Origin: Naegleria gruberi
Taxonomy: Eukaryota
DNA length: 1,196 nucleotides
Reading direction: 5' to 3' (one strand)
NCBI GenBank assembly: GCA_000004985.1
Contig: GG739509.1
Numbering within the stretch: position 1 is the first letter of the stretch; every line of letters begins with the position of its first letter. Shown here piece after piece: positions 1-1,196 of the stretch. The position numbers and the translations under genes are program-made. A model generated the notes under the pieces. It was not told the DNA's origin and ran no database searches. It was given only the letters and a program-made list of their open reading frames with translations.

Positions 1-73
1 TTTGACATTGACAAGTATTATAATCAATACAAATACCATGTGAAGAACAAACTTGTGAGGAATTTGAGGAATT
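1..73 (-). CDS. Probable continuation of the same CDS in the -1 frame, completing EGF-like unit 5; the 3' end runs off the window at base 1. The frame break at about 73-75 indicates a frameshift, a sequencing error or a pseudogenised copy.
   Basis: Read with codon first bases at plus positions congruent to 1 mod 3 (73..71 = AAT), the translation is NSSNSSQVCSSHGICIDYNTCQCQ. This matches the consensus of the preceding units (SNSS.VCS.HG.C..YNTC.C). It also restores the exact 10-residue C1-C2 spacing when joined to ENTICFG, which ends at codon 75..73. The Gly codon 75..73 and the Asn codon 73..71 overlap by one base, as expected if a single nucleotide is missing. Neither frame has a stop before base 1. 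Confidence 0.55.
56..73. repeat. Perfect 9-bp tandem duplication, tgaggaatt x2 on the plus strand. It lies in codon register with the shifted frame and encodes NSS-NSS on the minus strand.
   Basis: Plus-strand bases 56-64 and 65-73 are identical (tgaggaatt). The second copy abuts the inferred one-nucleotide frame break at 73-75. An EcoRI site (gaattc, 69-74) overlaps the junction. Confidence 0.7.
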
Positions 74-1196
74 CCAAAGCAGATTGTATTTTCGCAATAC
101 TTTCCAAAGTAATTGGATTTACATTTACATGTTTCATACGAGGTACAAGGTCCTTTGGCATTACAGACAGTTGATGAATTTGAAAGTATAGAGCCACAAG
201 TTGTTACATTACAATTATGTCCATAATATTGAGAATCACAAACACATGTATCAGTTTCTACACATGCACCGTGTGAGCTGCAAACTTGGGAATACGTATT
301 TTGAAGTCCAAAACATTCTAAAACCTCACAATTACTACCTGAACTACCAGGAGCACAAACACAAGTGTTATATTCTACACATCTTCCATGTCTTGAACAA
401 ACATTAGAAGAATTGGAAGCAACACCACTACAATATGTATTTTCACAGTAAGCACCAAAATGGTTGCTATCACATTTACAAGTGTTATAGTCAATGCATT
501 TACCATTTCTCGAACATACACTCGTATTGGTAGCCATTATATCATAGCAGATAGGTTTACAAGTAAATCCACCATATCCTGTGGGACATGTTGCCTTAAT
601 AGATCTAATCAATCCATTTTTAGCATCTGCTATCAATAACTCATTGCCTGACAAGAACAATCCTGCAGGATCATCAAACTTGGCGTCACTCAATTCACTC
701 TGGTCTTGTGCAATATGCATTCCAATGGTTGAAAATTTTCCAGAAAGTATGTTAATAGTTTTTCCATCAGAAGAAACATATCTAATATAGTTTGATCCAG
801 AATCTGTGAAAATGATGGTTCCATCCTCAGCAACCGTTAATCCCTTTGGAGTATTTAAAGATGCACTTGTTGGTAATCCACCATCTTTACTCAAGGATTC
901 AGTAGTTGCTCGAACACCATTTCCAGCAATTGTTGAGATTTTACCAGTGGAAGCTGTTACAAGTCTAATTTTGTGGTTTAAGGTGTCTGTGAAATAAATG
1001 TCACCTCCATCTGTCACAAAAAGACCATTCGGAAGATTCAATTTAGCCATTGTTGCTAAACCGCCATCTCCACAACTACTAGATGAATTGCTACAAGTTT
1101 CACCAGTACCAGCTACTGTTATAATTGTTCCATTTGTCAAAATTTTACGAATACGATTATTACCACCATCACTGAAATAGATTGATCCATCCTTGT
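73..1196 (-). CDS. Partial CDS, with the N-terminal side running off the window at 1196. It encodes an extracellular-type protein with NHL-repeat beta-propeller blades followed by tenascin/teneurin-type EGF-like repeats.
   Basis: Reverse-complement frame with codon first bases at plus positions divisible by 3 (first full codon 1194..1192 = AAG). It stays open for about 373 codons in sequence of roughly 33% GC, where stops would be frequent by chance. Translation begins KDGSIYFSDGGNNRIRKILTNGTIITVAGTGETCSNSSSSCGDGGLATMAKLNLPNGLFVTDGGDIYFTDTLNHKIRLVTASTGKISTIAGNG and continues through ATCPTGYGGFTCKPICYDIMATNTSVCSRNGKCIDYNTCKCDSNHFGAYCENTYCSGVASNSSNVCSRHGRCVEYNTCVCAPGSSGSNCEVLECFGLQNTYSQVCSSHGACVETDTCVCDSQYYGHNCNVTTCGSILSNSSTVCNAKGPCTSYETCKCKSNYFGKYCENTICFG. 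The repeated domain motifs are listed in the two domain features below. The ORF is absent from the supplied track, presumably because it has no stop and no defined start inside the window. Confidence 0.88.
595..1196 (-). other. NHL-repeat region: at least four blades of a beta-propeller, the first cut by the window edge.
   Basis: Four units each show the P.GL(F/T) ... DG(G).IYF(T/S)D..N..IR.(I/V) ... G pattern that defines NHL repeats. Blade A is about 1102..1196 (DGSIYFSDGGNNRIRKILTNGTIITVAGTG). Blade B is about 916..1068 (DGGLATMAKLNLPNGLFVTDGGDIYFTDTLNHKIRLVTASTGKISTIAGNG). Blade C is about 739..903 (KDGGLPTSASLNTPKGLTVAEDGTIIFTDSGSNYIRYVSSDGKTINILSG). Blade D is about 595..708 (FDDPAGLFLSGNELLIADAKNGLIRSIK). 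Matching to this family is by eye from the motif; a profile search was not possible. Confidence 0.75.

What the first reader, a model, noticed from the sequence alone, without database searches (positions are those of the whole stretch)
1..1196. The dominant gene, a window-spanning minus-strand ORF, is missing from the supplied ORF track
The only long stop-free reading frame in the window is on the minus strand. It is recognisable as NHL beta-propeller repeats plus EGF-like repeats. Because it is open at both ends it is not listed, and the four listed plus-strand ORFs (60-69 aa) lie entirely antisense to it. Any annotation built on the track alone would miss the real gene and call spurious small proteins.
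Basis: seen in the sequence. Interest (0 to 1): 0.55.

Follow-up and report, generated by a model that had tools for sequence, protein, structure and literature searches.

The report
Naegleria NHL–EGF surface-protein gene fragment
The window is a small Naegleria gruberi contig filled by an internal piece of one already-deposited minus-strand gene for an NHL-propeller plus EGF-repeat surface protein, so the finding is correct but ordinary, and its last 72 bases are read in the wrong frame because one base is missing.

Summary
The minus frame starting at plus 1194 is stop-free for 398 codons (not ~373). Every other frame has 13-50 stops. The ORF lister omits the frame only because it is open at both ends, and its four >=60-aa entries are all plus-strand and antisense. 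Pfam passes its curated cut-offs for NHL, TEN_NHL, EGF_2 and EGF_Teneurin. AlphaFold/Foldseek confirm an NHL propeller for residues 1-200. The window is a whole 1,196-bp Naegleria gruberi contig. GenBank/RefSeq already hold a truncated 237-aa model of this gene (EFC35244.1 / XP_002667988.1, plus 340-1050). Two refinements: the deposited model stops three to four EGF units too early, and the last 24 codons of the open frame are not the real frame. Restoring one base at plus 71-75 gives a fifth EGF unit in exact 39-residue register, backed by 90 tblastn HSPs from eight relatives. The uncorrected tail mimics a transmembrane helix. Relatives are Heterolobosea-specific surface proteins (signal peptide, NHL head, EGF stalk, membrane anchor, some with kinase or 7TM-RGS ends), none characterised. 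The plus-strand ORFs are shadow ORFs, and their excess is largely explained by T|A codon-junction avoidance. Ordinary; low interest.

The parts
1..1194 (-). Stop-free reading frame of 398 codons, open at both ends. It is an internal fragment of one protein-coding gene with no start, no stop and no intron detected.
   Evidence: tblastn HSPs from relatives run from plus 1194 to plus 2.
595..1194 (-). NHL beta-propeller part (aa 1-200): about 3.5 blades of roughly 61 residues. The first blade is cut by the contig end.
   Evidence: Pfam NHL and TEN_NHL above cut-off. AlphaFold pLDDT is above 90 for most of aa 1-200, with repeated four-strand blades. Foldseek top hits are NHL propellers.
559..588 (-). 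Short Cys cap CPTGYGGFTC (aa 203-212) linking the propeller to the EGF array.
   Evidence: Read from the sequence.
433..549 (-). EGF-like unit 1 (aa 216-254), C-x10-C-x5-C-x5-C-x-C-x8-C.
   Evidence: Pfam EGF_2 best stretch aa 225-250.
316..432 (-). EGF-like unit 2 (aa 255-293). The deposited model ends inside it, at plus 340.
199..315 (-). EGF-like unit 3 (aa 294-332).
   Evidence: Pfam EGF_Teneurin best stretch aa 305-330.
82..198 (-). EGF-like unit 4 (aa 333-371).
2..81 (-). EGF-like unit 5, cut by the contig end. CFG is read in the main frame (plus 81-73) and NSSNSSQVCSSHGICIDYNTCQCQ in the neighbouring frame (plus 73-2).
   Evidence: Exact 39-residue register after the correction. 0 of 20,000 shuffled tails give the Cys pattern. 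90 tblastn HSPs in blast frame -2 over plus 2-97 from 8 relatives, up to 73% identity. The Pfam EGF_Teneurin stretch count rises from 4 to 5.
71..75 (-). Frameshift site. The minus strand reads GGAAT where GGAAAT (Gly-Asn) would keep the frame, so one base is missing. Whether this is a sequencing error or a real mutation is unresolved.
   Evidence: The Gly codon (plus 75-73) and the Asn codon (plus 73-71) share base 73.
56..73 (.). Perfect 9-bp tandem duplication (TGAGGAATT x2) encoding NSS-NSS, directly next to the frameshift site.
   Evidence: Tandem Repeats Finder.
340..1050 (-). Extent of the deposited partial gene model (EFC35244.1 / XP_002667988.1, 237 aa = aa 49-285 of the frame). It starts at an internal Met inside an NHL blade and ends just before the donor-like GGTAGTAAT (plus 339-331).
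201..407 (+). Shadow ORF, 68 aa, antisense to EGF units 2-3.
   Evidence: no Pfam hit.
581..790 (+). Shadow ORF, 69 aa, antisense to the NHL part.
   Evidence: no Pfam hit.
806..997 (+). Shadow ORF, 63 aa, antisense to the NHL part.
   Evidence: no Pfam hit.
998..1180 (+). Shadow ORF, 60 aa, antisense to the NHL part.
   Evidence: no Pfam hit.

Best explanation
The window is a complete 1,196-bp unplaced contig of the Naegleria gruberi nuclear genome. It is occupied end to end by an intron-free internal fragment of one minus-strand gene. The fragment encodes part of the ectodomain of a surface-protein family specific to Heterolobosea: the last ~3.5 blades of an NHL beta-propeller, then a short Cys cap, then at least five tandem 39-residue six-cysteine EGF-like units. 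Shown here: the domain identities, the repeat register, the family membership, and a one-base frame break at plus 71-75 that puts the last 24 codons of the open frame out of the true frame. Inferred from full-length relatives: the intact protein starts with a signal peptide, displays the propeller as a ligand-binding head on a disulfide-stiffened EGF stalk, and is held in the membrane by a C-terminal anchor. That anchor may carry a kinase or a 7TM-RGS signalling end. The ligand and the cytoplasmic end of this copy are unknown because both gene ends lie off the contig. The four plus-strand ORFs are by-products of the gene's codon structure.
For: Open frame and chance control. Identity of the contig and the deposited model: a 100%-identical 237-aa Naegleria gruberi partial protein on a 1,196-bp contig. 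Pfam above cut-off for NHL, TEN_NHL, EGF_2 and EGF_Teneurin. AlphaFold pLDDT above 90 over most of aa 1-200. Foldseek E 3e-15 to 1e-7 against NHL propellers, including teneurin-like protein 9ifo, SOQ1, NHLRC2, teneurins and PknD. Five EGF units at aa 216/255/294/333/372 in an exact 39-aa period. Four C-x-C-x5-G-x2-C signatures, only in this frame. Sequence match to the WIF-1 and reelin EGF arrays. The exhaustive HMMER search gives 1,544 relatives of the EGF half, 283 at E<=1e-30. Among the sampled hits, every one that carries an organism name is Heterolobosea: N. gruberi, N. lovaniensis, N. fowleri, Percolomonas, Acrasis. 22 relatives align across the NHL-EGF junction at 26-39% identity, including NAEGRDRAFT_59621, _70916, _53247, _82303 and _80558. 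Relatives show signal-like N-termini and a single C-terminal hydrophobic helix, or TM plus kinase (P0272), or ~7 TM plus RGS (P0171). PMC9283941 describes N. fowleri 7TM-RGS proteins with EGF/lectin ectodomains. Frameshift.
Against: No signal peptide, membrane segment or output domain lies in the window, so topology and function rest on paralogs that are only 26-39% identical. No member of the family has been studied experimentally (literature searches). The EGF half could not be modelled with confidence. N-glycosylation sequons are not enriched (8 against 7.0 +/- 2.2). A real frameshift would make this copy a pseudogene rather than a working gene.
Confidence: 0.88

Rival explanations
1. The one-base frame break at plus 71-75 is a genuine mutation, and this orphan contig is a decaying pseudogene copy of an NHL-EGF paralog rather than a working gene with a base-calling error. 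This rival concerns the status of the copy, not what it encodes.
For: The frame break is in the sequence as given. The contig is an unplaced fragment and no near-identical copy turned up; the best non-self relative is 39% identical. A 9-bp tandem duplication abuts the site, which suggests local slippage.
Against: There are no stops in 374 codons before the break or 24 codons after it. All 31 Cys of the EGF half keep the family spacing. Position-3 GC is 21% against 38-48% at positions 1-2. The break lies 73-75 bases from a contig end, in a run of A, where read quality is typically poor (my inference; no traces are available).
Confidence: 0.25
2. There is no frameshift. The open frame is correct to the end, and its hydrophobic tail (FVLHMVFVLIIILV) is the protein's real transmembrane anchor after four EGF units.
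For: The frame is stop-free to plus 1. The tail scores as a membrane helix (Kyte-Doolittle 2.93). Relatives do carry a C-terminal anchor.
Against: The neighbouring frame encodes a fifth EGF unit in exact register. That unit matches 8 independent relatives in 90 HSPs, up to 73% identity. 0 of 20,000 shuffles reproduce its Cys pattern. The tail would begin in the middle of an EGF unit, straight after its first Cys.
Confidence: 0.02
3. The contig is bacterial contamination of the assembly, or a recent bacterial transfer, because the highest-scoring database hits to the whole frame are bacterial NHL-repeat proteins.
For: Ranks 2-26 of the word-indexed search are NHL-only proteins; the few that carry a source name are bacterial (Telluribacter, Streptomyces, acidobacterial MAGs), at 32-47% identity. 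The best single HSPs to the NHL half are from this set.
Against: Those hits cover only about half the query. The NHL half is just as similar to Naegleria paralogs (38.7-39.9%) as to the NHL-only proteins (35-41%). In the sampled hits, the EGF half matches only Heterolobosea among named proteins, best a 4,968-aa N. gruberi protein with 24 matched stretches. The NHL-EGF junction is shared with N. gruberi, N. lovaniensis and N. fowleri proteins. GC is 36%.
Confidence: 0.02
4. One or more of the plus-strand ORFs is a real antisense overlapping gene.
For: There are four closed ORFs >=60 aa against 0.8-1.2 expected under base, codon and synonymous-codon shuffles (p 0.003-0.015). Plus frame +2 has 24 stops against 35.2 +/- 3.3 (p about 0.0003).
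Against: No Pfam hit. None is longer than the longest ORF in 43-58% of shuffles. The stop deficit tracks a general depletion of T|A codon junctions (52 against 69, z -4.0) with a C|A excess. TC|A, which also makes an antisense stop, is enriched (6 against 3.7), the opposite of what antisense selection predicts. A related gene in L001 also carries 62-72 aa antisense ORFs.
Confidence: 0.02

Closest known systems
Naegleria NHL-EGF paralogs: N. gruberi NAEGRDRAFT_59621 (XP_002670765.1), _70916, _53247, _82303, _80558; N. lovaniensis C9374_003885, C9374_010972, C9374_014632; N. fowleri FDP41_013523. All are 'predicted' or 'uncharacterized' proteins.
   Same: NHL propeller followed directly by the same 39-40-residue EGF unit. 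Single alignments run across the junction over essentially the whole window protein at 31-36% identity.
   Different: None is a close copy; the best overall relative is P0149, an unnamed ENA contig protein, at 38.6%. The paralogs are complete and show signal peptide, anchor, kinase or RGS ends that the window cannot show.
Teneurins and teneurin-like proteins (metazoan type II cell-adhesion proteins; PDB 9ifo, 8fia, 6ske, 6fay)
   Same: They use the same two building blocks. The Pfam TEN_NHL and EGF_Teneurin models pass their cut-offs. The best Foldseek hit is a teneurin-like protein at 34% identity over 221 columns.
   Different: Teneurins have an N-terminal cytoplasmic domain, a TM helix and then the EGF domains, and are type II (abstracts of PMC6428715 and PMC6433969). 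Here the order is NHL then EGF, and relatives are type I with an N-terminal signal and a C-terminal anchor. The whole-array model EGF_TEN scores 47.5-48.7 bits, below its 65-bit cut-off. No YD/RHS shell or toxin-domain family appears in the Pfam hit lists of the 12 full-length relatives scanned.
Naegleria fowleri seven-transmembrane RGS proteins with EGF/lectin ectodomains (PMC9283941)
   Same: [quoted passage not shown] The N. gruberi relative P0171 has NHL + EGF array + about 7 hydrophobic segments + an RGS domain.
   Different: The window contains no membrane or RGS part, so whether this copy belongs to that subclass cannot be told. Other paralogs carry a single anchor or a kinase instead.
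Mycobacterium tuberculosis PknD-type sensor (extracellular NHL propeller coupled to a Ser/Thr kinase; PDB 1rwl)
   Same: NHL propeller as an extracellular sensor head; Foldseek hit at rank 50. The N. fowleri relative P0272 couples NHL-EGF to a TM segment and a protein kinase domain.
   Different: PknD is bacterial and has no EGF stalk. This is an analogy of design, not a demonstrated relationship.
Animal EGF arrays (WIF-1 2ygq, reelin 2e26, tenascin)
   Same: Six-Cys EGF units with C-x-C-x5-G-x2-C. phmmer E 2.5e-6 to WIF-1.
   Different: The window's units have a longer first loop (C-x10-C), seen as 7-residue gaps in the WIF-1 alignment. They also have a fixed 39-residue period.

Membership tests
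NHL repeat / six-bladed NHL beta-propeller (Pfam PF01436, PF25021) | Sequence profile match at or above the curated cut-off | tested here: met
   NHL 35.7 bits (cut-off 20); TEN_NHL 49.2 bits (cut-off 27.1).
NHL repeat / six-bladed NHL beta-propeller (Pfam PF01436, PF25021) | Four-stranded antiparallel blades with the NHL propeller fold | tested here: met
   AlphaFold pLDDT above 90 for most of aa 1-200, with repeated strand quartets. Foldseek probability 1.00 to NHLRC2, SOQ1, teneurin NHL, Thin NHL and PknD.
NHL repeat / six-bladed NHL beta-propeller (Pfam PF01436, PF25021) | Six blades closing into a ring | not testable with these tools
   Only about 3.5 blades lie in the window; the rest is beyond plus 1196.
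EGF-like domain (Pfam PF07974 EGF_2, PF23106 EGF_Teneurin) | Profile match at or above the curated cut-off | tested here: met
   EGF_2 48.4-50.6 bits (cut-off 22.1), 4 stretches. EGF_Teneurin 42.7-46.4 bits (cut-off 24.3), 4 stretches, 5 after frame correction.
EGF-like domain (Pfam PF07974 EGF_2, PF23106 EGF_Teneurin) | Six cysteines per unit, including the C-x-C-x5-G-x2-C signature (pattern recalled from memory as the older PROSITE EGF_1 form) | tested here: met
   Four complete units with C-x10-C-x5-C-x5-C-x-C-x8-C and four signature matches, none in any other frame. A newer pattern form, also recalled from memory, gave no match.
EGF-like domain (Pfam PF07974 EGF_2, PF23106 EGF_Teneurin) | EGF fold with 1-3, 2-4, 5-6 disulfides | tested here: inconclusive
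   Both AlphaFold runs gave pLDDT below 50 for the EGF half. The only support is sequence-level alignment to the solved WIF-1 EGFs.
Teneurin | Type II topology with the EGF repeats on the N-terminal side of the NHL propeller | tested here: not met
   The order in the window is NHL then EGF. Relatives have an N-terminal signal and a C-terminal anchor. The teneurin layout is taken from PMC6428715 and PMC6433969.
Teneurin | Whole teneurin EGF-array profile (PF25024) at its cut-off | tested here: not met
   47.5-48.7 bits against a cut-off of 65.
Teneurin | YD/RHS shell and C-terminal toxin-like domain | not testable with these tools
   The gene's 3' end is off the contig. No such family appears in the Pfam hit lists of the 12 relatives scanned, which argues against it but does not test this copy.
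Heterolobosean NHL-EGF surface-protein family (unnamed) | A single alignment across the NHL-EGF junction to Naegleria proteins, plus the 39-residue EGF unit | tested here: met
   22 junction-spanning HSPs at 26-39% identity. Named members are N. gruberi, N. lovaniensis and N. fowleri. The EGF half gives 283 relatives at E<=1e-30.
Heterolobosean NHL-EGF surface-protein family (unnamed) | Signal peptide and membrane anchor (secretory-pathway ectodomain) | not testable with these tools
   Both gene ends are missing from the window. These features are seen only in relatives.
Naegleria 7TM-RGS receptors (PMC9283941) | Seven membrane helices followed by an RGS domain | not testable with these tools
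   Not in the window. Present in relative P0171. Other relatives have different back ends.

The most novel reading that the evidence does not exclude
The fragment belongs to an uncharacterised, Heterolobosea-wide receptor superfamily. In it, one stereotyped 39-residue EGF stalk is combined with interchangeable extracellular heads (NHL, Kelch, RCC1-like propellers, NPCBM/jacalin lectins) and interchangeable cytoplasmic outputs (plain anchor, Ser/Thr kinase, 7TM-RGS). That would be an independent, non-animal invention of teneurin- or adhesion-GPCR-like sensing of the environment or of prey. The window adds only one more partial member.
Probability: 0.45. Interest if true: 0.35.

Novelty: already known. 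Interest (0 to 1): 0.12.

Why it matters
This matters mainly as a quality-control lesson. On short contigs, a mechanical ORF list that drops open-ended frames hides the only real gene and shows only its antisense shadow ORFs. The deposited model for this contig (XP_002667988.1) could also be improved. It should extend to both contig ends, read through the false splice donor at plus 331-339, and carry a one-base correction or a frameshift flag at plus 71-75. Without that correction, the translated tail looks like a membrane anchor and would mislead topology prediction. Biologically this is one more partial member of a large, unstudied Naegleria surface-protein family.

Tried and rejected
- **Word-indexed protein search with the EGF half:** it returned only the self-hit, because too few exact words are shared. 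The exhaustive HMMER search replaced it.
- **Exact look-up of the deposited protein's contig:** not on record.
- **Literature:** no paper holds Naegleria together with NHL and EGF, or with 'NHL repeat'. Only general context was found. The polymorphic-toxin paper mentions Naegleria only for unrelated toxin and immunity domains.
- **Independent copy of the frameshift site:** a pattern allowing 0 or 1 extra base found nothing in the metagenome contigs, so error and mutation cannot be told apart.
- **Structure of the EGF half:** pLDDT was below 50 with the NHL-dominated alignment and 42 from the single sequence. Neither was used.
- **N-glycosylation sequons as an extracellular marker:** 8 against 7.0 +/- 2.2 in shuffles, not significant. 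Four of five units do place a sequon at unit position 7-8.
- **DNA-level tandem repeat search:** it did not detect the 117-bp EGF period, because the units are only 36-63% identical as protein.
- **RNA genes:** Rfam and tRNA scans found nothing.
- **Bacterial origin of the NHL half:** similarity to bacterial proteins and to Naegleria paralogs is the same, so there is no case for it.
- **Real antisense genes:** rejected after the junction-context test, with a small residual recorded.
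Full report
**1. Observation**

- Six-frame translation shows that the minus frame whose first codon is plus 1194-1192 has no stop in 398 codons. The other five frames have 13-50 stops.
- Base shuffles give a longest open stretch of 76 codons on average, and never more than 181 in 2,000 trials.
- The mechanical ORF list omits this frame because it runs off both ends. At >=60 aa it lists exactly four ORFs, all on the plus strand: 201-407, 581-790, 806-997 and 998-1180, of 68, 69, 63 and 60 aa.
- Codon-position GC in the minus frame is 38/48/21%, the periodicity of real coding sequence in an AT-rich genome.
The product is 398 codons, not about 373.

**2. What it is**

- Pfam passes its curated cut-offs for NHL (35.7 against 20), TEN_NHL (49.2 against 27.1), EGF_2 (48.4 against 22.1) and EGF_Teneurin (42.7 against 24.3).
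- An AlphaFold model built with 44 homologs gives pLDDT above 90 for most of residues 1-200, with repeated four-strand blades.
- Foldseek matches that model to solved NHL propellers: a teneurin-like protein (9ifo, 34% identity), SOQ1, NHLRC2, teneurins, the Pizza designs and PknD.
- The C-terminal half holds 31 cysteines. They are arranged as units of C-x10-C-x5-C-x5-C-x-C-x8-C starting at residues 216, 255, 294 and 333, an exact 39-residue period.
- Each unit carries C-x-C-x5-G-x2-C, and no other frame does. This half also aligns to the solved EGF arrays of WIF-1 and reelin.

**3. Origin**

- The best database hit is a 100%-identical 237-aa 'predicted protein, partial [Naegleria gruberi]' (EFC35244.1 / XP_002667988.1). 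Its only contig is 1,196 bp long, the length of the window. I infer that the window is that whole contig.
- The deposited model covers residues 49-285 of the frame (plus 1050-340). It starts at a Met inside an NHL blade and stops just before GGTAGTAAT, which looks like a splice donor.
- The frame runs straight on through that point with the C-x8-C spacing and the 39-residue period intact, so I read it as exon, not intron.
- Homology to relatives also extends upstream of the model's Met, to plus 1194.
- Naegleria's nuclear genetic code is, to my knowledge, the standard one. Its stop codons are the same as in table 11, which the tools use.

**4.

- After the Cys-Phe-Gly that opens a fifth unit, the open frame reads IPQIPHKFVLHMVFVLIIILVNVK. 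The neighbouring minus frame reads NSSNSSQVCSSHGICIDYNTCQCQ.
- The Gly codon (plus 75-73) and the Asn codon (plus 73-71) share one base. One extra base (GGAAT to GGAAAT) joins the two frames and puts the fifth unit at residue 372, exactly in register with C-x10-C preserved.
- None of 20,000 shuffled tails shows the Cys pattern in any frame.
- Eight independent relatives give 90 tblastn HSPs in that second frame over plus 2-97, up to 73% identity. All 133 other HSPs are in the main frame.
- Pfam's EGF_Teneurin stretch count rises from 4 to 5 after the correction.
- The uncorrected tail scores as a membrane helix, so it would produce a false anchor.
- A perfect 9-bp duplication encoding NSS-NSS abuts the site.
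- I could not find an independent copy of the site. I lean towards a base-calling error near a contig end, at roughly 3:1 over a real mutation. That weighting is my inference.

**5. Family and likely function**

- An exhaustive HMMER search with the in-frame EGF half finds 1,544 relatives, 283 of them at E<=1e-30. They include proteins of 4,000-7,000 aa with 20 or more matched stretches.
- I looked up 20 of these hits. Every one that carries an organism name is Heterolobosea: N. gruberi, N. lovaniensis, N. fowleri, Percolomonas or Acrasis.
- Twenty-two relatives align across the NHL-EGF junction at 26-39% identity, five other N. gruberi genes among them.
- Complete relatives have signal-peptide-like N-termini and a single C-terminal hydrophobic helix with a basic tail.
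- One N. fowleri member adds a protein kinase domain after the helix. One N. gruberi member has about seven hydrophobic segments followed by an RGS domain.
- Other members replace the NHL head with Kelch, RCC1-like or lectin domains.
- A JBC 2022 paper describes N. fowleri 7TM-RGS proteins with EGF/lectin ectodomains and compares them with adhesion GPCRs (PMC9283941).
- From this I infer, but have not shown, that the window encodes part of an extracellular ligand-binding head on an EGF stalk of a surface receptor or adhesion protein. The ligand and the output of this copy are unknown.

**6. The plus-strand ORFs**

- None has a Pfam hit, and none is longer than the longest ORF in about half of the shuffles.
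- Their number, however, exceeds all three nulls. Four were observed, against 0.78 (base shuffle), 0.82 (codon shuffle, plus strand) and 1.24 (synonymous-codon permutation, p = 0.015).
- Plus frame +2 has 24 stops against 35.2 +/- 3.3.
- The junction-context test explains most of this. T|A codon junctions on the coding strand are generally depleted (52 against 69.0, z -4.0) and are replaced by C|A (z +2.7).
- TC|A, which also makes an antisense stop, is enriched. That is the opposite of what selection for an open antisense frame predicts.
- A residual remains: TT|A plus CT|A are at 0.57 of expectation, against 0.91 for AT|A plus GT|A. With 398 codons I cannot resolve it.
- A related gene in L001 also carries 62-72 aa antisense ORFs. 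I judge the four to be shadow ORFs.

**7. Comparison with known systems, and verdict**

- The protein uses teneurin-type building blocks but fails the teneurin tests that could be run here. The domain order is reversed, relatives have type I topology, the whole-array profile falls below its cut-off, and the relatives scanned show no YD shell.
- It is a member of the unnamed heterolobosean NHL-EGF family.
- The gene is already deposited and its domains are standard, so this is already known, with minor corrections to the gene model.
- Interest is low. The useful points are the annotation lesson and the false membrane anchor created by the frameshift.

Noticed in passing
window 1-72 (minus strand, aa 375-398 of the open frame): The out-of-frame tail IPQIPHKFVLHMVFVLIIILVNVK scores as a transmembrane helix (Kyte-Doolittle 2.93). 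Real family members do carry a C-terminal anchor, so this artefact would be easy to believe.
   Followed up: yes
window 56-73: A perfect 9-bp tandem duplication (TGAGGAATT x2, encoding NSS-NSS) ends exactly at the frameshift site. With it included, the loop keeps the family's C-x10-C length.
   Followed up: partly
window 331-340: The deposited model XP_002667988.1 ends at plus 340, just before the minus-strand GGTAGTAAT (donor-like). The frame and the 39-residue repeat continue through it, so the model probably ends at a falsely predicted intron.
   Followed up: partly
window 1-1196, coding-strand codon junctions: There is strong avoidance of T|A across codon boundaries (52 against 69.0 expected from synonymous permutation, z -4.0), with excess C|A and T|G. 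This removes antisense stops and inflates the number of shadow ORFs. A residual deficit specific to TT|A and CT|A is unexplained.
   Followed up: partly
window 1072-1095 (aa 34-41): The first NHL blade in the window carries an insert, CSNSSSSC, holding the only two Cys of the NHL half, where bacterial relatives have the G-x-x-G-D-G-G loop. It may be a small disulfide loop.
   Followed up: no
L001 591-4410 (GCA_037189345.1, JBBCKJ010081751.1): Three adjacent called genes look like one split eukaryotic gene: 591-1997 (signal-peptide-like start plus NHL), 2039-3991 (NHL plus EGF) and 3988-4410. The middle ORF ends in a non-EGF tail right after a CP, while another frame carries on open. That suggests introns or frameshifts mis-called by prokaryote-style gene finding.
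   Followed up: partly
Relatives P0172, P0128, P0125, P0253, P0272, P0171: The same EGF stalk is joined to different heads: Kelch, RCC1-like, or NPCBM with a sub-threshold Jacalin hit. It is also joined to different ends: a REJ domain plus Sel1 repeats, a Ser/Thr kinase, or ~7 TM plus RGS. This suggests extensive domain shuffling in Heterolobosea.
   Followed up: partly
window 595-1194 compared with hits: The NHL half is as similar to bacterial NHL-repeat proteins (35-41% identity over ~200 aa) as to Naegleria's own paralogs (38.7-39.9%). The propeller repeat is unusually conserved across domains of life, and nothing here argues for or against an old transfer.
   Followed up: partly
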